Virus record (IMG/VR): IMGVR_UViG_2531839130_000015
Reading direction: 5' to 3' (one strand)
Source of the DNA: a virus
Taxonomy: Duplodnaviria; Heunggongvirae; Uroviricota; Caudoviricetes
DNA: 38,838 nucleotides
Both the position numbers and the translations under genes were made by a program. The notes beneath the pieces were generated by a model. That model had not been told where the DNA came from. It did not search any database and saw only the letters and a list, made by a program, of their open reading frames with translations. Shown piece after piece: positions 1,363-14,435 of this stretch (positions within the stretch are counted from its first letter, which is position 1; each line of letters starts with the position of its first letter).

Positions 1363-1446
1363 TTAATTTCGATTATTTTTCCCGGATGGAAAATTCTTAG
1401 AAACCGATCACATACAGCTGTATTTATTAAGGTTATCATCCGTTTC

Positions 1447-1532
1447 GCTGAAAAACATAACCCATAAAATGCTAGCTGTACCAGGAACCACCTCCTTAGC
1501 CTGTGTAATCTCCCTTACACGGGCTTATTTTT
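1447..1532 (+). ncRNA. cyaR: CyaR (RyeE) sRNA; 3' terminator hairpin overlaps the prophage att core
   Basis: Sequence gctgaaaaacataacccataaaatgctagctgtaccaggaaccacctccttagcctgtgtaatctcccttacacgggcttatttttt matches my recollection of cyaR; position directly downstream of yegQ as in E. coli K-12; ends in a stem (gcctgtgtaa/ttacacgggc) plus T-run. Ends approximate. Confidence 0.7.
1504..1530. other. Prophage attachment site core, cyaR-proximal copy
   Basis: About 27-bp sequence aatctcccttacacgggcttatttttta repeated exactly at about 38337..38363; matches the recalled P2 att core; lies between host cyaR and phage ogr. Confidence 0.8.
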
Positions 1533-6516: not shown

Positions 6517-7035
6517 TCACAGGCCGATATTTCGGCGGTGTTGCTCCAGCCGGTCGACGCCGTTCACCTTCTCAATCATGTTAATGGTGTCGATTTCGAC
6601 CAGCTCCTTACCGTCCATCGTCAGCCGGAAATAGGTGCAGACCACGGAGATTTTCGACTCAGTGTCTTCTCCCTGTTTCCCCTCGCCGGTGTCGATTTCT
6701 TTCTGACGTCCACGCATGACCACCTCGACGGCCACCGTTTCGCCGGTATCGTCGCGCTGGTAAGAGCCAGCAAAACGAATCGGTACGGCATCCACACCGG
6801 TTGCGGCGTAAAGCTCCCAGATAACCGAATCCGGGAAGCCACCGAGCGACCACTCCATTGACAGCGCATCGTCATCAAGGCCGAGGTCTACCGGTGCGCT
6901 GCCGTTCATCCCCGCACCGCGATAGTTTTCGAGTTTACGGGTCAGTTTTGGTAGCGTGACGGACTTTGCAACGCCCTGATAGCTGTAGCCGTTCAGAAAG
7001 ACGTTCATTAACTTGAGTTTGCGCGGCATTGCCAT
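6517..7035 (-). CDS. FII: Tail tube protein FII (172 aa)
   Basis: Size and synteny with P2 gpFII. Confidence 0.9.
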   Translation of the reverse strand: MAMPRKLKLMNVFLNGYSYQGVAKSVTLPKLTRKLENYRGAGMNGSAPVDLGLDDDALSMEWSLGGFPDSVIWELYAATGVDAVPIRFAGSYQRDDTGETVAVEVVMRGRQKEIDTGEGKQGEDTESKISVVCTYFRLTMDGKELVEIDTINMIEKVNGVDRLEQHRRNIGL

Positions 7036-7047
7036 CGGTCAGGCTCC

Positions 7048-8238
7048 TTAATTGCTGTTAACCGAGGTGACCAGATTCGCCAGGTATTTATCGGTAATAC
7101 GCTGGCGCAGGGTCAGGTTTTCAAGAGGAGGCACCGGGGTATAGTCGTAGTCGATATACAGTTTTCCGGCCTTGAGGGTTTCCGCATCGTTGGATTCTTC
7201 GCTGAACCAGCATGAGCCATCCACGATATAGCCGTTTGTTTTCAGCTCACGGAATTTGGCATTGATGCCGTCAACGATGTCGCGAATCAGCGTTGCGGTG
7301 ATGGGCTTGTCCACCGCCCACATGTGCGCCTCAGCCATCGTGTCGGCCAGCACCTGCGCGGTGCGTGTGTAGTTTTCAAAGAGAAACAGCGGGTCATCAG
7401 AGCAGGTACGGTTACCCCAGAAGCGGAAACCGTCGCGGCGAATCAGCGTAGTGACGCCTGACTCGTTAAGCAGGTCAGCATCGGTGCCGGACTCCTGCAA
7501 ATCCCAGAATACAGAGGCGCTGATGCCGGTAACACCGTTCACCCCGACGTTGGACAGCGTTTTATGCCAGCCCTGCTCCTGGTCGATTTTAGCGCGCAGA
7601 CCCAGCGCACGGGCGGTGGCATACGCGGTGGCAGTGGTACTGGTGACCGTATCCCATGCGAGGAAATCCGGCCAGATGACCATCAGCTCACGCTGGCTGA
7701 AATTCTGGCGGTAGGCTTTCACCTCGGAAATGGTCTTACAGCCCCATGCGCTGATATATCCGAAAGCGCGCAGCTTCTGACAGACGGATGCCAGTGCAAC
7801 AGCCACCTCTTTGGTGTCCAGCCCCGGCACACCGAGAATACGCGGTTTAACACCGGTTACCGACTCCGCCGCCAGCAGGGCTTTCAGTCCGGTGTACTGA
7901 CCGTTTTCGTCGGTGGTTCCGATGATATTGGAAACAGTCTGCGCGAGTTTCGTTTCTTCGTCTTCGCCGGTGCCGTCTTCCACACGCACGACAACGGTGA
8001 CCGGTTTTGACTGGTCGGCGATGGCCTGCAACGATGCCGCCAGCGTGCCTTTTTTACCGGCCTTTGCAATTGCGCTCTGCACATTGGTAATCAGCACCGG
8101 TTTATTGAGGGGGAAGGTTTCCGCATCCGCATCGCTGGCTGTGCAGACCATGCCGACAATGGCGGTGGATACGGTGGAAATGACGCGGGTGCCGTCGTTA
8201 ATCTCCAGCACCTGCACGCCGTGATGATAGTCACTCAT
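7048..8238 (-). CDS. FI: Contractile tail sheath protein FI (396 aa)
   Basis: Size and synteny with P2 gpFI; MSDYHHGVQVLEINDGTRVIS start. Confidence 0.9.
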   Translation of the reverse strand: MSDYHHGVQVLEINDGTRVISTVSTAIVGMVCTASDADAETFPLNKPVLITNVQSAIAKAGKKGTLAASLQAIADQSKPVTVVVRVEDGTGEDEETKLAQTVSNIIGTTDENGQYTGLKALLAAESVTGVKPRILGVPGLDTKEVAVALASVCQKLRAFGYISAWGCKTISEVKAYRQNFSQRELMVIWPDFLAWDTVTSTTATAYATARALGLRAKIDQEQGWHKTLSNVGVNGVTGISASVFWDLQESGTDADLLNESGVTTLIRRDGFRFWGNRTCSDDPLFLFENYTRTAQVLADTMAEAHMWAVDKPITATLIRDIVDGINAKFRELKTNGYIVDGSCWFSEESNDAETLKAGKLYIDYDYTPVPPLENLTLRQRITDKYLANLVTSVNSN

Positions 8239-8327: not shown

Positions 8328-8361
8328 AACAGATAAAGAAAAGGCGGGCAATTCGCCCGCC
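8328..8361 (-). terminator. Intrinsic terminator on the minus strand upstream of FI, separating the cargo locus from the FI operon
   Basis: Minus strand reads GGCGGGCGAATTGCCCGCC followed by TTTTCTTTAT; the late promoter for the FI operon should lie in the about 90 bp between this hairpin and the FI start (not resolved). Confidence 0.55.
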
Positions 8362-8661
8362 TGTCCTGATTTGTACTCACTCATTTTCCGCCTGACAATT
8401 TACATAGCCCAAATGCTATCAAATCTGACAGTCTGCTTTGAGCGAGAAACGGACGTTATAGATAGTGTGTTAAGGTTTTCTCTTTAATTGCAATGTCATA
8501 TCCTCAACGACCAAGTAGTGACATTTTTCGTTATTATATGGTATTGTGTTAGAATTAATTTATTGATGCGAAATCATTCAAAGCTTCATTGGTACTTATA
8601 TTTAACTTATAATCTTAATTAAAGAATTTCTTATTTTTAGATATTTTTATGCAAATACTTA

Positions 8662-9414
8662 ATGAAAGGAGGCATAAATTTGGATACTAACAGTCCATTA
8701 ATTGAAGTCGAGCAGAACACTTCAGACATATATATTCCGTTGCAAGCCTGGTTCGAGGGGAGAAAATTCCTTTCACACAGATTTTCGGGCCAAAACTGTA
8801 GTGATAATCCATCAAGTGATTGGGAGGCTTGGTTATCAATACAGGAATGCTGTCCTCTCCATCAGGTCAATAGTCTTAACTGGGTCGGACTGCATGAAGC
8901 CAGGAAAAATACAGATTCATTCTTGGGGAATGTGAAGAGTGAATTTAATGGAAAGCTTCCCATTTTTATTCATGAAAAGGAGAGGGTGATAATCGAAAAA
9001 AAAATCGGCATTCCTCCCAAACCCTCATTACCAATCTATTTAATATCATGCTCTGATATGGATGATACCAATGAACACATTGTTTATGTCGGAAAAACCG
9101 TTAACTCCAAAAGGTTTATTGGCGGTCACTCGGCTGCCTTAAAGTTGCTAGATCCCAAATATAATAATATGAAAAAGAGGATATATAGAGCCACCCCATG
9201 GTTTTATGATGGAAAAGACTATATTTCACTGGATTGGATTAGTCCGACATCATTAGCTATAGAATTACTTGACTTTATAGAGTCTCATCTTATTTACAAT
9301 CTCAAGCCGGAACTCAACACATCGAAGAAAAAAAATGAAGATACACGTTATTCTTTTTATCTTCACATTCAGAACTTTTTATCAACAGGCTTTCTTAATG
9401 ATGAGTTTATTTAA
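8662..9414 (+). CDS. AT-rich cargo protein with a C-terminal GIY-YIG nuclease-like domain and an unknown N-terminal domain (about 244-250 aa)
   Basis: PIYLISCSDMDDTNEHIVYVGKTVNSKRFIGGH fits the GIY...YVG(K/S)(A/T)...R...H pattern of I-TevI/UvrC-type domains, with a downstream IESHLIYN...N segment consistent with the catalytic Glu/Asn. Strong AAGGAGG Shine-Dalgarno at about 8666..8672 suggests the real start may be TTG at about 8680 rather than ATG at 8662. Occupies the P2 Z/fun position. Confidence 0.6.
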   Translation: MKGGINLDTNSPLIEVEQNTSDIYIPLQAWFEGRKFLSHRFSGQNCSDNPSSDWEAWLSIQECCPLHQVNSLNWVGLHEARKNTDSFLGNVKSEFNGKLPIFIHEKERVIIEKKIGIPPKPSLPIYLISCSDMDDTNEHIVYVGKTVNSKRFIGGHSAALKLLDPKYNNMKKRIYRATPWFYDGKDYISLDWISPTSLAIELLDFIESHLIYNLKPELNTSKKKNEDTRYSFYLHIQNFLSTGFLNDEFI

Positions 9415-9440
9415 TATCATTACTTATTAACATAGTAGAG

Positions 9441-9464
9441 ATTAAACTACGTCCGCTCCTGGCA
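9441..9464. repeat. Palindromic hairpin GTCCGCT-N10-AGCGGAC, copy 1 of a three-member family
   Basis: Read directly from sequence: gtccgctcctggcaagcagcggac. Confidence 0.6.
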
Positions 9465-9484
9465 AGCAGCGGACATTGCTGGCT

Positions 9485-9506
9485 GAGTTGAGGGTCCGCT
9501 GTGAGC
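9485..9506. repeat. Palindromic hairpin TCCGCT-N10-AGCGGA, copy 2
   Basis: Read directly from sequence: tccgctgtgagcgaggagcgga, 20 nt after copy 1. Confidence 0.6.
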
Positions 9507-9789
9507 GAGGAGCGGAAGTTCAAAATTTTTCATAACGACTGATGAGAACAACACTAATTTTCGAACTTACTGGTACAAAAAATTTCCATAATCTTATAAA
9601 AAGTGGGGGAGTCAGTATGGTTCAATATTTGAAATACTACTTGTTTATGTTGAGAAAATTTTAAGCTTGACCTGGTTACCAGATTACAGCCGATCAACAC
9701 CTAGACATCGAAACTTAGAGGTACCTCTGCTTTCAGGCATACTTAGAGGTCTATGTCTAAACCACCCGCTATGCAGGTGGTTGATTTAC

Positions 9790-11325
9790 CTAATTCGGCC
9801 TTGCTTGAATAGCAGACTCTATAGCTGCTCGGAATTCCGGGGCATCAGTTCTTAATCGATAATCATCAAGGGTATTGAATATTTCTAGAAGTTCTCTACG
9901 ATAATGCAGCGGTGCTGAATTACCTTCGCCTCTAGTGGTGAAAATTAATAATGAGTCAGCGACGTCTTTTAATTTTTTATTCCTTTTCAACCTAATATAA
10001 CAAGATACAACTATATCAAGAATATGCTTTCTAGATTTCAAGGTGAGTTTATTATTAGGCATAACCAACTGCAGCATAGCACCAAGTAATTTGGTAGCCT
10101 CTTTTGAAATATAATGAAGATCGAAATTATCTATTTCTTTATTTTCTTGAGGAATCTCCTTTTCATCTATCCATTCGCATTGTTCTGCCCAATCTGTAGC
10201 GACGCTAAATAAATGACAGAGAAGGAAGTGAAAAGGTGTTTCCCATTCACCACTATATTCATCTGATTGCCTATTCATATTCTTTATAATTTTCCTTGCG
10301 AAATATGAATAGTAATGCAACCATAAATGATCCTGAAGACCCTGGTGAATACCTTCATGAACCATAATTTCAAACAGCGTGACACCTGAGTAAATAGGAC
10401 ATTTATATTTTGAAGCATCGTAATAGGAACCTAAAGACTTATTAAGTGCAGCAATAATTTTTTCATCTTCATCTAACCTCCAGTAGAGATAGTCACCGAT
10501 ATCACGGTATATTGCTAAATCAGCTGCAAACTTAGCATTGGAAAAGAAAAAATGTAATATACGGTTGTTTTTTGGAATCAATAAACGATGTCCTCGACTA
10601 ACGTTAAGATTATTTTTAAGCTCAACATATAGACGACTGTTAGGTGAACCAAGTAATGCACTGATAAAATTAGAAGTAAAGTCAGAACGAACTATTGGCT
10701 CGATCTTGATTAACTCAAGGCAGAGGGATGGGTGCGCAAGTGCAAAGTGATTGGTAAGTTCAGGTGATGAGACAATATTTAACAATGCTTCATGTGCATG
10801 TTCAGCAGCTGTCTCGCGATTAGAGATGCGGAGATTGTTAGCTATCTTATCACAAAGTCGATTCTTCACAGGTCTATCAATTATTGATATTAATTTTTCT
10901 AGTTGAGGTGCCAACAATTGTGCCAGATCGTCGTATCGTTTAGTAAGGTGCAAATTTTCCACTAACTCTAGAAATATCCCTGTTCTTCCAATTGAGAGTT
11001 TAGGGTTTTTTAAGCGAAATGAAATGTAAATAGCAACTGCGAGTGATATCAGGTATACGGCACTTGAACTATCTAATCCCCATTTCCAGGGGCCAAAGCT
11101 AAAATATAAGTCTAGTGATTTTAAAGCCGGTGCAAACACCAAATAATTGCTTAGTAAGAATGCAAACCCAACAATTACCCAATCCCACCACGCTAGGCAG
11201 AACCTTAAACGTAGTCGAGCGTTTGGCGTAATAAGGGCCCATACAGCAGCAATAACGCCCAATATGGTAAGTAGACTTGATGTATCAATTTTGGTTGGCG
11301 GTGTCATAATTTCTCTTGTAATCAT
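9790..11325 (-). CDS. AT-rich cargo membrane protein (511 aa): about three N-terminal TM helices plus a large soluble domain with an HExxHxxxxxH motif; function unknown
   Basis: Hydrophobic segments LLTILGVIAAVWALI, WVIVGFAFLLSNYLVFAPAL, AVYLISLAVAIYISF; motif VHEGIHQGLQDH resembles zinc-metallopeptidase HExxH/metzincin spacing; no P2 backbone gene of this kind recalled; convergent with the upstream GIY-YIG gene. Confidence 0.6.
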   Translation of the reverse strand: MITREIMTPPTKIDTSSLLTILGVIAAVWALITPNARLRLRFCLAWWDWVIVGFAFLLSNYLVFAPALKSLDLYFSFGPWKWGLDSSSAVYLISLAVAIYISFRLKNPKLSIGRTGIFLELVENLHLTKRYDDLAQLLAPQLEKLISIIDRPVKNRLCDKIANNLRISNRETAAEHAHEALLNIVSSPELTNHFALAHPSLCLELIKIEPIVRSDFTSNFISALLGSPNSRLYVELKNNLNVSRGHRLLIPKNNRILHFFFSNAKFAADLAIYRDIGDYLYWRLDEDEKIIAALNKSLGSYYDASKYKCPIYSGVTLFEIMVHEGIHQGLQDHLWLHYYSYFARKIIKNMNRQSDEYSGEWETPFHFLLCHLFSVATDWAEQCEWIDEKEIPQENKEIDNFDLHYISKEATKLLGAMLQLVMPNNKLTLKSRKHILDIVVSCYIRLKRNKKLKDVADSLLIFTTRGEGNSAPLHYRRELLEIFNTLDDYRLRTDAPEFRAAIESAIQARPN

Positions 11326-11596
11326 TGTTTGATGTACATCGGAATGGTTTCAAATGATAAGGCTCTGTGTATGATAAATCAGAACGTTATGCACGTTTAA
11401 GAATACCCTCAAAATGGCACATTTTAATCTAAAAATGGCATTAAATGGACACTACTTGTCCACACAAGTTTTTTTCAGTCGGCTTTTCCCGACTAACGTT
11501 TGGGGTGTCCTATTGAAACTACGCTCCTTATAAAAGCAATACTGTAGCTGTATGTTTATCAAAGGGGTTGTGCTAACCAAATTACTGAAGCCTAAG

Positions 11597-11620
11597 GTCC
11601 GCTCTTGGCACAGAGCGGAC
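11597..11620. repeat. Palindromic hairpin GTCCGCTCT-N6-AGAGCGGAC, copy 3
   Basis: gtccgctcttggcacagagcggac between the cargo membrane gene and tail gene G; shares the GTCCGCT/AGCGGAC stem with copies 1 and 2. Confidence 0.6.
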
Positions 11621-11681
11621 TGTCAGATCAGGCTTTACTCTGTGCCATAGATATGTAAGCTCACACCAGAGCTCATACAAC

Positions 11682-12209
11682 TTATTGTGGCATTTTCGGC
11701 CATTCGGGATTTGCAGGATCCACACGGCTGACCAGAACACTGTAGCGTTCCCATGCTTCCAGTCGGCTATGCTCCTCATCTGTTGCCATGTTCAGCCTGA
11801 CAGCGCGCTCCAGTGGCTGAATAACGCTTTCCGCTTCGGAAAGTAACGCGGCCTTTTGTGATTCTGTCTGTTGTTGCTGTTCGTCTGCCGTATAAATCCG
11901 CTTAATCACGGCACCATCCTTAAACATCCATTTACCTGAGTCATCAGCACGTCGGTTGGCGGTAATATCAGGAACCTCGACAACGCTAAAACCTTCAGGG
12001 TTAAGCGTTGAAGCATCTCTGGTGATGCCGACAATTATATTATTCTCGTCGTAAACAATCTTTATCGTGTCTTCCTGAAAATTACTTACTTCCTCATACC
12101 AGTTTTTTCCGTCTTCGGACCATAACCAGATAACATCAAAATTTTTTGTCAGTTGATATTGAGCAACAGTTTTTGGATTACCCGCAGTAATATTTTTTAA
12201 ATGCTGCAT
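11682..12209 (-). CDS. G: Tail fibre assembly chaperone G (175 aa)
   Basis: MQHLKNI...[29 protein letters not shown] matches recalled P2 gpG. Confidence 0.9.
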
Positions 12210-12212
12210 AAA

Positions 12213-14435
12213 TTACACCTGTGCGACGTTATACCATGTGCCATTGATGTATTTTTGTATCGGTCTGAATACTGCGGGGTCATCACCATCGACTTCACCG
12301 ACAATACCAAGCCCTGTAATTACGTGCCCTGCTTTCTCATACATAACCCCTTTCTGCATAGTCTGAACAACACGAGTGCCCAGGCGAATATCCCGGACAT
12401 AGCGAGAATCTGATTCAGCTTTGGTGTATGCACCAACATCTCCCGCTGATGGTTTTCGTGTTGTGGTATAGAAATCAGACCAGCCAGATTCAAAACCATA
12501 ACCATCACGGGCTGACCTGTAAGATATACCGCCATTTTTATAATTCACACGAAACTGTACAGCCGGGCAGCTACCAGCATTTATATTAAAGTGAAGAATT
12601 AATGCAGATGCTCCCCCAATCAGAGCGTTGTATGCGCCACTGTCCCAATTCCATCCAACGGCTGTATCACCATTAACCGTATTACCTGTCTGCCGAAGTG
12701 CAAATGCACCGACATTTCTGGCATTAAGGGTAATATCTCCAGAACCATCAAAGGCAACACCTGCTATTTTCCTCGGTGTTTCGAGTTTTGAGGCTGTTGC
12801 AGCATTTCCTGAAAGGCTGGAAATAAATGGATGTGAACAGTAATAACCACGTCCATTTTTAAAATCCAGAATAGCCTGTACGTTCGTGCTTTCTGTAGCG
12901 GGATTAGTTGCCCCCCACTTATATGTCGTCTGACCGACGACATAATCCTCTGTCGGAACAATAACCGTTAGCCCTTCCTCTGCAAGAATTTGTACTGGGA
13001 AAGCTCTGGCTTCAACATAAAAAACACTACATACATCATCATCTTTCAGGCTTGTAACAATGGAATGGATTGAACGCTCATTAGTCTGATACGTCCAGAA
13101 ATAACCTGCCGCATATGAACCACGATCGGTCCAGCCTCCGGGCATAACCATGCCATTAAACTCGCAGTTATTCATTACATAATCGCCGTTATAACAACCA
13201 GTTGAAATAACGACGCGGGATGCCATTTCTCCTGAAAGGCTGGCAGCACGGCGAAAGATAACGGGATACCACTTCCCGGCAACGACATTTGCAGGGGCTG
13301 CAAACGAATACTTTCGCATTCCCTTTTTCTTATCCACTTCACCTTTGCTGTAAACATTAATGTTACTCAGGAAGCGTCCTTTATCAGGAATATCCGCACC
13401 GTTCTGATCTTTCTGAAGACGTTTTTCAGCATTGTCATAGGCAGACTTCACCGCTTTTGGTGTTGCAGCCAGCGTTTCAGAATCACTGTTGGTGGCGCTA
13501 CTGAGCTGGACAAGACCTTTTCGCGCTGTGGTGGCATCCTGTGCAGTGTATTTCCCGTTAGCAAGGTCATACGCTGTCTTAACCGCCTTTGGCGTTGCCG
13601 CAAGCGTTTCAGAATCGCTGTTGGTGGCGCTACTGAGCTGGACAAGGCCTTTTCGCGCGGTGGTGGCGTCCTGTGCAGTGTATTTCCCGTTAGCAAGGTC
13701 ATATGCTGCTTTTACCGCTTTTGGTGTTGCGGCGAGCGTTTCAGACGTGCTGTTGGTGGCACTACTGAGCTGGACAAGGCCTTTTCGCGCTGTGGTGGCG
13801 TCCTGTGCAGTGTATTTCCCGTTAGCAAGGTCATATGCTGCTTTTACCGCTTTTGGTGTTGCGGCGAGTGTTTCAGACGTGCTGTTGGTCGCACTGCTTA
13901 ACTGAGTAAAACCTTTGGCGGTCAGCGAGGCGTCCGGGTGACGTCGTGACTGTTCATGTTCTGCAATTTTGTCATCAACGTAATCCTGCGTTGCCATCAC
14001 CGTTGTGGTGTCAATGGTCAGCGCCACTGAGGCCACACTGCTGACGATGATGACCATGCGGCAGGTCTGCGAACGCCCTGAGCCTTCGGCAAGAGCTGGC
14101 TTATAACTTTCAGCCATGTTCGCCACGGCAATTAACGTTCCAGCATCATCGTACAGGCCAAGCTCACGCATCCAGAAACCGCCCACCTCCGGCGGAATAA
14201 CCAGCTCTGCGATAATATAATTACTGTTTCGTTTGTCCTGGCTGATTTTGTTCAGCGCATGTCGCCAGACTTCGTGGATAAGCCCGGTCTGTCCGGCATC
14301 CGGGACAGGCAATTTACCACCGCCATCCCCGACGGCCATCGTGGTAATGTTGACCTTCCGCCCTCCCGGCGCGGTTGCCGCTGCCAGCTTTGCTGCACCA
14401 GCAGTGGTGATAACGGTTCTGAATTTTGTGCTCAT
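12213..14435 (-). CDS. H: Tail fibre protein H (740 aa) with internal tandem repeats and an AT-rich distal receptor-binding region
   Basis: N-terminus P2 gpH-like; four tandem copies of an about 40-aa unit (…LSSATNSTSETLAATPKAVKAAYDLANGKYTAQDATTARKGLVQ…); product longer than recalled P2 gpH (about 669 aa). Confidence 0.85.
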   Translation of the reverse strand: MSTKFRTVITTAGAAKLAAATAPGGRKVNITTMAVGDGGGKLPVPDAGQTGLIHEVWRHALNKISQDKRNSNYIIAELVIPPEVGGFWMRELGLYDDAGTLIAVANMAESYKPALAEGSGRSQTCRMVIIVSSVASVALTIDTTTVMATQDYVDDKIAEHEQSRRHPDASLTAKGFTQLSSATNSTSETLAATPKAVKAAYDLANGKYTAQDATTARKGLVQLSSATNSTSETLAATPKAVKAAYDLANGKYTAQDATTARKGLVQLSSATNSDSETLAATPKAVKTAYDLANGKYTAQDATTARKGLVQLSSATNSDSETLAATPKAVKSAYDNAEKRLQKDQNGADIPDKGRFLSNINVYSKGEVDKKKGMRKYSFAAPANVVAGKWYPVIFRRAASLSGEMASRVVISTGCYNGDYVMNNCEFNGMVMPGGWTDRGSYAAGYFWTYQTNERSIHSIVTSLKDDDVCSVFYVEARAFPVQILAEEGLTVIVPTEDYVVGQTTYKWGATNPATESTNVQAILDFKNGRGYYCSHPFISSLSGNAATASKLETPRKIAGVAFDGSGDITLNARNVGAFALRQTGNTVNGDTAVGWNWDSGAYNALIGGASALILHFNINAGSCPAVQFRVNYKNGGISYRSARDGYGFESGWSDFYTTTRKPSAGDVGAYTKAESDSRYVRDIRLGTRVVQTMQKGVMYEKAGHVITGLGIVGEVDGDDPAVFRPIQKYINGTWYNVAQV
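13430..13925. repeat. Four tandem about 120-bp coding repeats inside tail fibre gene H
   Basis: Near-identical repeated DNA blocks seen directly (e.g. tggtggcgctactgagctggacaag... recurring); corresponds to the repeated peptide unit in H. Confidence 0.8.

What the first reader, a model, noticed from the sequence alone, without database searches (positions are those of the whole stretch)
9415..11620. Family of GTCCGCT...AGCGGAC hairpins and other palindromes bracketing the membrane-protein cargo gene
Three hairpins share the same stem sequence (9441..9464, 9485..9506, 11597..11620). Two lie just after the GIY-YIG gene and one lies between the 511-aa gene and G, so together they bracket the 511-aa gene. 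None has the T-run of a canonical terminator. The 375-bp spacer 9415..9789 also contains AGAGGTACCTCT and TAGACAT/ATGTCTA palindromes. These could be cassette-boundary recombination sites, protein-binding sites, or a structured ncRNA.
Basis: seen in the sequence. Interest (0 to 1): 0.5.

Follow-up and report, generated by a model that had tools for sequence, protein, structure and literature searches.

The report
Recombination sites bounding prophage cargo cassettes
The hairpins are real and are the boundary sites of two swappable cargo-gene cassettes in a P2-like prophage; the same sites bound cassettes in other phages and genomic islands and are physically linked to a small uncharacterised tyrosine recombinase, which suggests how such cargo genes move.

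Summary
The hairpins exist, but two coordinates are 10 nt off. True positions are 9451-9474, 9494-9517 and 11597-11620, and a fourth copy at 8431-8454 was missed. They are 24-28 bp palindromes, (AT)GTCCGCT-NN-centre-NN-AGCGGAC(AT), of two classes: centre TGGCAC (T) or GAGCGA (G).

In the Z/fun hotspot between genes G and FI they read G-[250-aa gene]-T-19 nt-G-[511-aa gene]-T, which is two cassettes.

GenBank records of P2 Z-regions (linked by me, unread, to Nilsson et al. 2004) already annotate the outer copies as inverted repeats.

Findings I could not locate in the literature:
- The same grammar bounds cassettes in lambdoid and e14-like prophages, E. coli pathogenicity islands and Enterobacterales chromosomes.
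- Identical cassettes sit in different elements, with junctions always at the outer edge of the 6-nt centre.
- A conserved 200-aa tyrosine recombinase containing only the catalytic domain ("sInt") sits inside such site pairs in Gammaproteobacteria and between inverted sites in Alphaproteobacteria. Its clades co-vary with the site centre.

Best reading: recombination core sites used in trans. The enzyme link is inferred, not shown. They are not terminators, integron attC sites, Xer sites or REP/RAYT elements, and nothing supports a structured RNA.

The parts
8342..8362 (-). Canonical Rho-independent terminator (AGGCGGGCGAATTGCCCGCCT followed by TTTCTTT). In P2-like phages with an empty hotspot it directly follows the stop codon of G, so it marks the FI-side edge of the inserted platform.
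8365..11681 (.). Whole Z/fun platform: everything inserted between the terminator and the G stop codon, relative to empty-site P2-like phages. Cargo G+C is 34-37%, against 50% for the window.
8364..8454 (.). FI-side outer inverted repeat, homologous to the 'right inverted repeat' annotated in AJ512683 and AJ512682. Its inner end is site HP0.
8431..8454 (+). HP0, a G-type site: GTCTGCTTT GAGCGA GAAACGGAC. The left (outer) arm belongs to the P2 backbone. The centre and right arm belong to cassette A.
8455..9450 (.). Cassette A. It carries ORF 8662-9414 (+, 250 aa; PHROG 16890, unknown function). It was found only together with cassette B, in 6 complete E. coli genomes.
9451..9474 (+). HP1, a T-type site: GTCCGCTCC TGGCAA GCAGCGGAC.
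9475..9493 (.). 19-nt linker of the HP1-HP2 pair (attgctggCTGAGTTGAGg). It matches the conserved linker consensus ..TAACTGAGCTGAAG seen in 31 such pairs. HP1, linker and HP2 together fold as one long hairpin (-44.6 kcal/mol, z -5.5).
9494..9517 (+). HP2, a G-type site: GTCCGCTGT GAGCGA GGAGCGGAA.
9518..11596 (.). Cassette B. It carries ORF 9790-11325 (-, 511 aa; PHROG 13820, unknown function) and about 270 nt of non-coding DNA on each side. At about 99% identity, the segment from the HP2 centre to the HP3 centre recurs in two kinds of non-P2 chromosomal island.
11597..11620 (+). HP3, a T-type site: GTCCGCTCT TGGCAC AGAGCGGAC. The left arm and centre belong to cassette B. The right (outer) arm belongs to the P2 backbone.
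11597..11709 (.). G-side outer inverted repeat, homologous to the 'left inverted repeat' annotated in AJ512676, AJ512682 and AJ512683. It overlaps the 3' end of G, whose stop codon is at 11682-11684.

Best explanation
The four palindromes are core recombination sites that delimit two cargo cassettes in the Z/fun hotspot of a P2-like prophage.

Anatomy (shown). Each site has two inverted arms, (AT)GTCCGCTNN and NNAGCGGAC(AT), around a 6-nt centre. There are two classes, T (TGGCAC) and G (GAGCGA, roughly an inverted T). A cassette always runs from a G site to a T site. Neighbouring cassettes are joined by a conserved T-18 nt-G pair.

Recombination point (shown from natural recombinants). Exchange happened at the outer edge of the centre. 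The centre and inner arm travel with the cassette, and the outer arm stays with the host element. This allowed the same cassettes to be swapped between P2-like phages, lambdoid phages and pathogenicity islands.

Enzyme (inferred). The reaction is probably catalysed in trans by a small tyrosine recombinase of about 200 aa that has only the catalytic domain ('sInt'). Its gene sits inside such site pairs in other elements. It is absent from this window, so these two cassettes would be non-autonomous.
For: (1) The sites are non-random and confined to the hotspot. Reference P2 has exactly two, bracketing fun(Z), and P4 has none.

(2) A scan of viral contigs for GTCCGCT-N10-AGCGGAC returned about 130 matches, and the free loop was mostly TGGCAC or GAGCGA. 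The order G..T-18 nt-G..T held in the many loci with two or more sites.

(3) In a sample of P2-like loci chosen only by the FI protein there were 51 distinct G-FI intervals. Of these, 43 have at least one recognisable site in the expected orientation, 26 of them with both classes. Four of the eight intervals with no recognised site are 'empty': they lack the whole platform.

(4) The same cassette occurs in different elements. The 511-aa cassette is in this P2-like prophage, in a YfjJ/Gp2-type island and in an IS100/dynamin pathogenicity island. A 984-nt cassette is shared by lambdoid and P2-like phages. A 1917-nt cassette is shared by another array and a P2-like phage. Every junction lies between the outer arm and the centre. 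With the context held fixed and the cassette different, divergence starts at site positions 8, 9 or 11 in 81 of 106 such pairs; nearly all the others differ first in the flank just outside the site. One pathogenicity-island platform carries either this cassette or an iron-uptake operon.

(5) Arms and centres are conserved as sequence, with no compensatory covariation for either possible fold. The genes between sites point either way (66:43).

(6) The sInt gene lies in the linker position: G-type site, 39 nt, gene, about 20-30 nt, then a half T-type site (AGCAGCCCT GTGCCA nnAGCGGAC). This holds in lambdoid prophages, a Phytobacter chromosome and the CFT073 pathogenicity island. A truncated copy with degenerate flanking sites lies in a P2 Z/fun locus. 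Providencia, marine Gammaproteobacteria and Idiomarina keep the downstream half T-type site, with the upstream site degenerate or absent. It holds in 11 of 12 distinct viral loci with at least 83% identity.

(7) Alphaproteobacterial homologues (50-52% identical) are flanked by inverted TGACCC-class sites 111 nt upstream, and in three of four 107-111 nt downstream, in four different neighbourhoods.

(8) Recombinase clades co-vary with the site centre: GTGCCA, CGGCCA or TGACCC.

(9) The catalytic residues R, K, H, R, H and Y are invariant in the alignment.
Against: No biochemical or genetic test links sInt to the sites. The gene could be a passenger that happens to sit between sites. This window has no sInt gene, and only 912 of 5426 E. 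coli genomes carry it, while at least 3219 have detectable site pairs. The breakpoint mapping rests on four cassette families and on a few polymorphic positions. Crossovers within short homology cannot be strictly excluded. T and G sites flank a cassette in inverted orientation with different centres, so simple excision of one cassette is not the expected reaction. Two events, or a double exchange, must be assumed. No circular or excised cassette, and no platform without cargo, was seen. In Alphaproteobacteria the related sites behave like dispersed REP-type repeats beside housekeeping-type genes.
Confidence: 0.6

Rival explanations
1. The sites are REP/BIME-like extragenic palindromes. Their primary role would be structural or regulatory: insulating cargo transcription, stabilising mRNA 3' ends, or binding a nucleoid protein. 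Cassette exchange would be a by-product of general or phage-encoded recombination using the 24-28 bp of shared sequence.
For: There are two palindrome classes in alternating orientation forming pairs, as in BIMEs and REPINs. The sites are intergenic everywhere. In Alphaproteobacteria they are dispersed on several contigs of the same genome assembly beside ordinary genes. HP3 lies 61 nt downstream of G and forms a stable hairpin on either strand (-17.8 and -19.3 kcal/mol).
Against: Loop sequences are conserved, with no covariation. Breakpoints cluster at one edge of the centre rather than across the arms. No RAYT-like ORF is present in any locus. In E. coli the copy number is low and restricted to mobile elements. 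There is a tight positional link to a tyrosine recombinase gene, and its clades co-vary with the centre. The uninterrupted identical stretches of 6-9 nt are far shorter than RecA needs, as far as I know.
Confidence: 0.22
2. The hairpins are ordinary intrinsic transcription terminators that flank independently transcribed cargo genes ('morons').
For: They sit at gene ends, and each forms a G+C-rich stem.
Against: None has a T-run, and the terminator scan does not call them. The real terminator of the G operon is at 8342-8362. The same sequence, including the loop, is conserved across two proteobacterial classes. The sites occur at both ends of cassettes regardless of gene direction.
Confidence: 0.05
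3. They are substrates of a known recombination system: integron attC sites cut by IntI, or dif-like sites cut by XerC/XerD, as in the pdif modules of Acinetobacter plasmids.
For: The HP1-linker-HP2 pair is an imperfect inverted repeat of about 66 nt between cassettes that folds as one hairpin, as attC does. Each site has the 11-6-11 layout of dif. The modules are bounded by sites in alternating orientation, as in pdif modules.
Against: The breakpoints do not map to RYYYAAC/GTTRRRY-type core sites, and no IntI gene is nearby. Cassettes point either way. Only 9 of 28 positions match E. coli dif, which is chance level, and the XerD arm TTATGTTAAAT is absent (comparison by eye with sequences recalled from memory). 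The linked recombinase is a distinct 200-aa protein far below the XerC, XerD and XerA family cut-offs.
Confidence: 0.04

Closest known systems
Left and right inverted repeats of the P2 Z/fun region (GenBank AJ512676, AJ512682, AJ512683). [quoted passage not shown] That attribution is mine and was not checked.
   Same: Same locus between G and FI, and homologous sequence. HP3 is the inner end of the annotated 'left inverted repeat' and HP0 is the inner end of the 'right inverted repeat'. The link to islands of pathogenic E. coli, which the paper's title announces, was reproduced here.
   Different: This window holds two cassettes with an internal T-linker-G pair. The following points are not in the GenBank annotation or in any paper I could read: the two site classes, the fixed grammar, the breakpoint position, the occurrence in lambdoid and e14-like prophages and in chromosomes, and the linked recombinase. 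The 2004 paper itself was not available to me, so I cannot say how much of this it already contains.
Integron gene cassettes with attC sites and IntI
   Same: Arrays of promoter-independent, low-G+C cassettes of about 1.4 kb are separated by imperfect inverted repeats of about 66 nt. A tyrosine recombinase gene sits next to a one-sided primary site and is followed by cassettes.
   Different: There are no R''/R' core sequences. The breakpoints fall in both half-sites. Gene orientation is mixed. The recombinase is 200 aa with the catalytic domain only, and is not IntI. Platforms sit inside phages and islands.
pdif (Xer) modules of Acinetobacter plasmids
   Same: The sites are 28 bp with an 11-6-11 layout, in alternating orientation. 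They bound modules that move between replicons without carrying their own recombinase.
   Different: The arms do not resemble XerC or XerD binding sites. Modules are separated by pairs of sites, not single sites. A dedicated small recombinase is linked.
REP/BIME elements and REPIN-RAYT systems
   Same: Two classes of palindromic unit occur as inverted pairs. In Alphaproteobacteria a single-copy enzyme gene is flanked by its own repeats while many copies are dispersed.
   Different: The linked enzyme is a tyrosine recombinase (PF00589), not an HUH/Y1 RAYT. The sites have no GTAG head. In E. coli they are low-copy and confined to mobile elements, where they bound exchangeable cassettes.
FimB/FimE-type small tyrosine recombinases (DNA invertases)
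   Same: Similar size of about 200 aa, with the first catalytic arginine near residue 50 and only a short N-terminal extension. There is a weak full-length match to the invertase models PRK09870 and PRK09871.
   Different: The scores are far below the family cut-offs (27.5 against 222 bits). The sites differ, and no inverted state of a cassette was seen in 51 P2-like loci.

Membership tests
P2 Z/fun-region inverted repeats (GenBank AJ512676, AJ512682, AJ512683) | Located between tail-fibre assembly gene G and tail-sheath gene FI of a P2-like phage | tested here: met
   FI, FII, G and H were identified by ORFs and tblastn against P2-like loci. The region matches P2-like phages at 93-96% on both flanks.
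P2 Z/fun-region inverted repeats (GenBank AJ512676, AJ512682, AJ512683) | Sequence homology to the annotated repeat_region features | tested here: met
   Window 8364-8454 aligns with the 'right inverted repeat' and 11597-11709 with the 'left inverted repeat' of AJ512683.
P2 Z/fun-region inverted repeats (GenBank AJ512676, AJ512682, AJ512683) | The repeats enclose foreign, low-G+C ORFs that differ between otherwise near-identical phages | tested here: met
   Cargo G+C is 34-37% against 50% for the window. There are 51 distinct intervals among 80 loci whose FI proteins are 85-100% identical.
Integron attC sites | The boundaries of the inverted repeat are R'' (RYYYAAC) and R' (GTTRRRY) core sites, with the crossover in R' | tested here: not met
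   Breakpoints map to the site centres, not to flanking AAC/GTT. Only a loose GCAAC...GTTGC flank is seen.
Integron attC sites | An adjacent IntI integrase and cassettes that all point the same way | tested here: not met
   No IntI was found. The linked protein is 200 aa with only a PF00589 catalytic domain. ORF orientation is 66:43.
Xer (dif/pdif) sites | 28-bp site with an 11-6-11 layout | tested here: met
   The logo is AT-GTCCGCT-NN / 6 nt / NN-AGCGGAC-AT.
Xer (dif/pdif) sites | Arms matching the XerC (GGTGCGCATAA) and XerD (TTATGTTAAAT) binding consensus | tested here: not met
   9 of 28 positions are identical to E. coli dif, which is chance level. The comparison was by eye, with the dif sequence taken from memory.
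REP/BIME and REPIN-RAYT | Extragenic palindromic units of two classes arranged as inverted pairs | tested here: met
   T-18 nt-G pairs have a start-to-start spacing of 42 nt in 31 of 45 cases.
REP/BIME and REPIN-RAYT | High copy number dispersed over the chromosome | tested here: not met
   In E. coli the median is 2 and the maximum 8 detectable places per genome, all in prophages or islands where examined. The feature is met only in alphaproteobacterial MAGs.
REP/BIME and REPIN-RAYT | Associated RAYT (HUH/Y1 transposase) and a GTAG/GTGG head on the repeat | tested here: not met
   phmmer with K-12 RayT against all six-frame ORFs of the loci found no hit. There is no GTAG in the logo.
Intrinsic (Rho-independent) terminators | A G+C-rich stem-loop followed directly by a T-run | tested here: not met
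   The terminator scan does not call HP0-HP3. It does call 8342-8362.
Core site of a simple tyrosine recombinase | Inverted binding arms around a 6-8 bp spacer, with strand exchange at the spacer edge | tested here: met
   Architecture. Natural recombinant junctions lie within site positions 12-16 of T sites and 9-12 of G sites, which is the same relative place. This is an inference from sequences, not from cleavage assays.
Core site of a simple tyrosine recombinase | A cognate recombinase binds and cleaves the site | not testable with these tools
   Only genetic linkage is available: sInt sits next to the sites at fixed distances in 7 gammaproteobacterial and 5 alphaproteobacterial contexts, and its clades co-vary with the centre.
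Known structured RNA families (Rfam 15) | A match to a covariance model, or covariation supporting a fold | tested here: not met
   There is no relevant match at E up to 10 in 8380-11700. No covariation was found.

The most novel reading that the evidence does not exclude
The hairpins would belong to an undescribed gene-cassette system that works like an integron but is built differently. A small tyrosine recombinase with only a catalytic domain would act on two-class 28-bp sites. Autonomous copies would be site pairs containing the gene, and non-autonomous copies would be 18-nt-linker pairs. The system would move cargo, including anti-phage and virulence genes, between P2-like phages, lambdoid and e14-like prophages, pathogenicity islands and chromosomes. 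A REPIN-like high-copy form would exist in Alphaproteobacteria.
Probability: 0.45. Interest if true: 0.85.

Novelty: new variant of a known kind. Interest (0 to 1): 0.7.

Why it matters
How cargo and defence genes are swapped so quickly at fixed hotspots of temperate phages is an open question. A 2026 survey of thousands of P2 and P4 elements lists transposons, homologous recombination and illegitimate recombination as unsatisfactory options. [quoted passage not shown] Rousset et al. 2022 also leave the mechanism open (PMC9122126).

The present analysis gives a concrete, testable mechanism:
- defined 28-bp sites with a mapped exchange point;
- a grammar shared by the elements that do exchange cassettes (P4 has no such sites);
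- a named candidate enzyme, present in 17% of complete E. coli genomes including CFT073.

If it holds, the sites could be used to predict cassette boundaries, to mine new cargo genes, and possibly as a compact recombination tool.

Tried and rejected
- **Rfam.** The gathering-threshold search of the whole window found only CyaR, which is unrelated. The permissive search of 8380-11700 found nothing relevant.
- **Covariation.** I tested the small hairpins and the long HP1:HP2 hairpin and found none. The structured-RNA idea was dropped.
- **RAYT/REP hypothesis.** No RAYT-like ORF is present in roughly 330 loci.
- **Integrase or RAYT next to alphaproteobacterial arrays.** Bulk Pfam scanning of 150 flanking ORFs returned only ordinary genes among the 25 most frequent families.
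- **Xer and attC membership.** Rejected on sequence.
- **'Recombinase-mediated cassette exchange with two heterospecific sites'.** I considered it as the sole model. It is kept only as one possible reaction, because same-class sites also occur as direct repeats around cassette-plus-linker units.
- **Cassettes as transposons with 17-bp terminal repeats inserting into a palindromic target.** Rejected: it does not explain the conserved linkers, and no empty palindromic target was found.
- **Klebsiella phage-plasmid homologue of the 511-aa gene (about 74% identity).** It has no flanking sites.
- **Phage HannyBb region.** No sites.
- **3' non-coding part of cassette B in a 91% variant.** Conservation could not be judged because an IS30 truncates it.
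- **Literature.** Searches for the motif and for a small-recombinase cassette system found nothing. Nilsson et al. 2004 and the Christie and Calendar P2 review are not held.
- **Not used.** Structure prediction, fold search, the representative-protein search and the metagenome scan.
Full report
**Observation**

The window carries a P2-like prophage. On the minus strand lie FII (6517-7035), FI (7048-8238), a 511-aa ORF (9790-11325), G (11682-12209) and H (12213-14435). A 250-aa ORF (8662-9414) lies on the plus strand.

The strict pattern GTCCGCT-N4-16-AGCGGAC occurs twice, at 9451-9474 and 11597-11620. The relaxed pattern occurs three times, adding 9494-9517. Shuffled sequence gives 0.00 and 0.06 matches.

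A fourth, degenerate copy lies at 8431-8454 (GTCTGCTTTGAGCGAGAAACGGAC). A very relaxed scan finds no other copy in the 38.8 kb.

**What was already on record**

The segment 8239-11700 matches P2-like phages only at its two ends. GenBank records AJ512676, AJ512682 and AJ512683 (Z-regions of P2-EC30, -EC53 and -EC58) annotate a 'right inverted repeat' and a 'left inverted repeat' at those ends. Their inner ends are the homologues of HP0 and HP3.

I attribute these records to Nilsson, Karlsson and Haggard-Ljungquist 2004. I know that paper only from reference lists and could not read it, and the attribution was not checked. The boundary repeats, and the idea of site-specific recombination linking P2 cargo to pathogenic enterobacteria, are thus not new.

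**Anatomy**

An alignment of several hundred copies gives a 28-bp unit: AT-GTCCGCT-NN-(6-nt centre)-NN-AGCGGAC-AT. There are two classes in Enterobacterales. T has centre TGGCAC (HP1 has the variant TGGCAA; HP3 is canonical). G has centre GAGCGA (HP0 and HP2). A G site is roughly an inverted T site (repeat I2).

A scan of viral contigs for GTCCGCT-N10-AGCGGAC, with the loop left free, returned about 130 matches. Most had one of these two centres, so the loop is part of the conserved element.

The order is fixed: G, cassette, T, about 18 nt, G, cassette, T. The T-to-G start-to-start spacing is 42 nt in 31 of 45 pairs, and the linker is conserved (..TAACTGAGCTGAAG).

The window reads HP0(G) - cassette A - HP1(T) - 19 nt - HP2(G) - cassette B - HP3(T). 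HP1, the linker and HP2 together fold as one long hairpin (-44.6 kcal/mol, z = -5.5).

**The platform is itself an insertion**

I sampled P2-like loci by FI protein only, so the sample is unbiased with respect to the hairpins. This gave 51 distinct G-FI intervals. Twenty read T..G, three read T..G T..G, three more have both classes, and 17 have one recognisable site. Four of the eight with no recognised site are empty.

In the empty ones the G stop codon is followed directly by the terminator ACAGGCGGGC...GCCCGCCTTTTCTTT. The scan finds that terminator at 8342-8362 in this window. Everything from 8365 to 11681 is therefore inserted DNA. Cargo G+C is 34-37% against 50% for the window. Reference P2 has exactly two sites, bracketing fun(Z). 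There are none in the tin/old hotspot, and P4 has none.

**Evidence for recombination at the sites**

Cassette B recurs at about 99% identity in roughly 70 complete E. coli genomes. Only six of them have it in this P2 arrangement together with cassette A. Elsewhere it lies in a YfjJ/Gp2-type island (L004, L005, L007) or in an IS100/dynamin pathogenicity island (L331). The identity starts at the HP2 centre and ends at the HP3 centre, and the outer arms differ:
- G side: GTCCGCTGT (window), GTCCGATAT and GTCCGTTGT before GAGCGA.
- T side: AGAGCGGAC (window), AAAGCAGAC and AAAGCGGAC after TGGCAC.

Two further cassettes are shared between lambdoid and P2-like phages, or between another array and a P2-like phage, with the same junctions. 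A fourth shows it on the T side.

Conversely, I compared T-site pairs that share the context but hold different cassettes. In 81 of 106 such pairs the sequences first diverge at site positions 8, 9 or 11. Nearly all the others differ first in the flank just outside the site. For G sites with a shared outer context, divergence starts mostly at positions 13-17. The exchange point is therefore confined to about 5 nt at the outer edge of the centre, at the same relative place in both classes.

One pathogenicity-island platform carries either cassette B or a 5.7-kb iron-uptake operon.

**What the sites are not**

- They lack a T-run, and the terminator scan does not call them.
- There is no Rfam match.
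- There are no compensatory changes for either the small hairpins or the long HP1:HP2 hairpin.
- Genes between the sites point either way (66:43). This argues against a transcript-linked role and against the integron layout.
- The arms do not resemble XerC or XerD sites (compared by eye).
- No RAYT-like ORF occurs in any locus.

**Distribution**

In E. coli a consensus site pair is detectable in 3219 of 5426 complete genomes. The median is 2 places and the maximum 8, always intergenic. The four contexts I examined are:
- an e14-like prophage next to intE, with a three-cassette array;
- a Qin-like lambdoid prophage downstream of the replication genes;
- an ST131 pathogenicity island;
- the CFT073 pathogenicity island.

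One genome per species was scanned. The same G/T grammar appears around accessory chromosomal genes in Erwinia, Pantoea, Citrobacter, Phytobacter, Yokenella, Leclercia and others.

Many alphaproteobacterial MAGs (Pseudolabrys, Xanthobacteraceae, Hyphomicrobiales) have dense T sites paired with a third class (centre TGACCC) at 45 or about 91 nt. These lie beside ordinary genes, and in several assemblies on more than one contig. There the family behaves like a dispersed REP/REPIN-type repeat.

**A candidate enzyme**

In the lambdoid array L329 the usual 18-nt linker is replaced by a 200-aa 'site-specific integrase' gene, which I call sInt. The layout is: G-type site, 39 nt, gene, about 20 nt, then a half T-type site AGCAGCCCT-GTGCCA-nnAGCGGAC.

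Homologues occur at the same position in another viral array, in a Phytobacter chromosome and in the CFT073 island. A truncated copy with degenerate flanking sites lies in a P2 Z/fun locus (L287).

The family is large and highly conserved. At least 8000 database hits were returned, and the best 120 are 77-95% identical across Enterobacterales, Alteromonadales and Cycloclasticus. All carry PF00589 only. In Providencia, marine Gammaproteobacteria and Idiomarina the downstream half T-type site is again present 18-30 nt after the stop codon. In viral contigs this holds for 11 of 12 distinct loci with at least 83% identity.

Homologues with 59-63% identity mostly carry a related site with centre CGGCCA, and a 61% one carries TGACCC.

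The alphaproteobacterial homologues (50-52% identical, mostly recorded on a single contig) have a TGACCC-class site in inverted orientation 111 nt upstream. In three of the four neighbourhoods one also lies 107-111 nt downstream.

R51, K79, H148, R151, H174 and Y183 are invariant. NCBIfam gives only sub-threshold matches to Xer catalytic domains and FimB/FimE-type invertases. No solved structure matches by sequence. sInt is present in 912 of 5426 E. coli genomes, usually once, and is absent from this window.

**Interpretation**

Shown:
- the sites exist and are non-random;
- they bound two cassettes;
- identical cassettes occur in unrelated elements, with junctions at one defined place in the site;
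- the sites are conserved as sequence;
- a tyrosine recombinase gene is positionally linked to them in two proteobacterial classes.

Inferred:
- sInt is the enzyme that uses the sites;
- the cassettes here are moved in trans;
- the reaction is same-class (T x T, G x G) integration and excision, or double exchange.

The main rival is that the sites are REP/BIME-like palindromes and that recombination exploits them passively. The clustering of breakpoints, the conserved loops and the recombinase linkage argue against it, but only an experiment can exclude it.

**Novelty**

The boundary repeats at P2 Z/fun are known. I could not find any of the following in the searchable literature:
- the two-class grammar;
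- the mapped exchange point;
- the spread to other prophages, islands and chromosomes;
- the REPIN-like alphaproteobacterial form;
- the linked recombinase containing only a catalytic domain.

A 2026 survey still treats the mechanism of cargo swapping in P2 and P4 as unknown. I could not read the 2004 paper, so part of this may have been reported there.

Noticed in passing
window 1445-1530 (+): CyaR/RyeE sRNA gene (Rfam RF00112, 100.7 bits), close to one end of the window. It probably marks the chromosomal flank of the prophage.
   Followed up: no
window 11606-11647: A second inverted repeat, TGGCACAGAG (11606) and CTCTGTGCCA (11638), overlaps the centre and right arm of HP3. Two mutually exclusive hairpins are therefore possible just downstream of G. 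It may be a decayed T site in the outer repeat.
   Followed up: partly
window 8662-9414 (+) and 9790-11325 (-): Neither cargo protein has a Pfam, NCBIfam or PADLOC match. They fall in PHROG 16890 and PHROG 13820, both of unknown function. The 'GIY-YIG' label given in the finding is not supported. By eye, the 511-aa protein appears to have hydrophobic N-terminal segments.
   Followed up: partly
window 9714-9783: Inside cassette B there is a direct repeat CTTAGAGGT (9714 and 9742). A hairpin AACCACC..GGTGGTT (9760-9782) lies immediately after the stop codon of the 511-aa gene. The scan calls a weak terminator-like site on the plus strand at 9766-9780.
   Followed up: no
L254, L264, L291, L315 (P2-like viral contigs): These are 'empty' Z/fun hotspots. 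The G stop codon abuts the terminator, with no platform, no repeats and no cargo. The whole platform, including the roughly 100-nt outer inverted repeats, therefore looks like an ancient insertion.
   Followed up: yes
L178, L169, L150, L186, L158 and others (alphaproteobacterial MAG contigs): Dense arrays of GTCCGCT sites occur, up to 16 in 8 kb. T sites are paired with a TGACCC class at 45 or about 91 nt. Many single genes are individually bracketed, notably paralogues of ABC_sub_bind (PF04392). This hints at a role in paralogue expansion.
   Followed up: partly
L328 5833-9925 (E. coli TUM1880, e14-like prophage at icd): A three-cassette G..T array lies directly next to intE/xisE. This is another prophage hotspot that uses the same sites.
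   Followed up: partly
L375, L378, L374, L397 (viral contigs): A more distant clade of the small recombinase (59-63% identical) is followed by a variant site, GTCGCTAxC CGGCCA GAAGCGGAT. This suggests several recombinase and site specificities.
   Followed up: partly
L338-L341 (marine gammaproteobacterial contigs): The small recombinase sits between an arsenic-resistance cluster (ArsR, ArsC-like, Acr3) and copper-resistance genes (CopC/D, Cus). The system may also accompany metal-resistance cargo.
   Followed up: no
L300 (P2-like locus): The G-FI interval of this phage appears, from its translated sequence read by eye, to contain a serine-invertase-like coding sequence instead of recognisable T and G sites. 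It is probably a different arrangement of the tail-fibre region.
   Followed up: no
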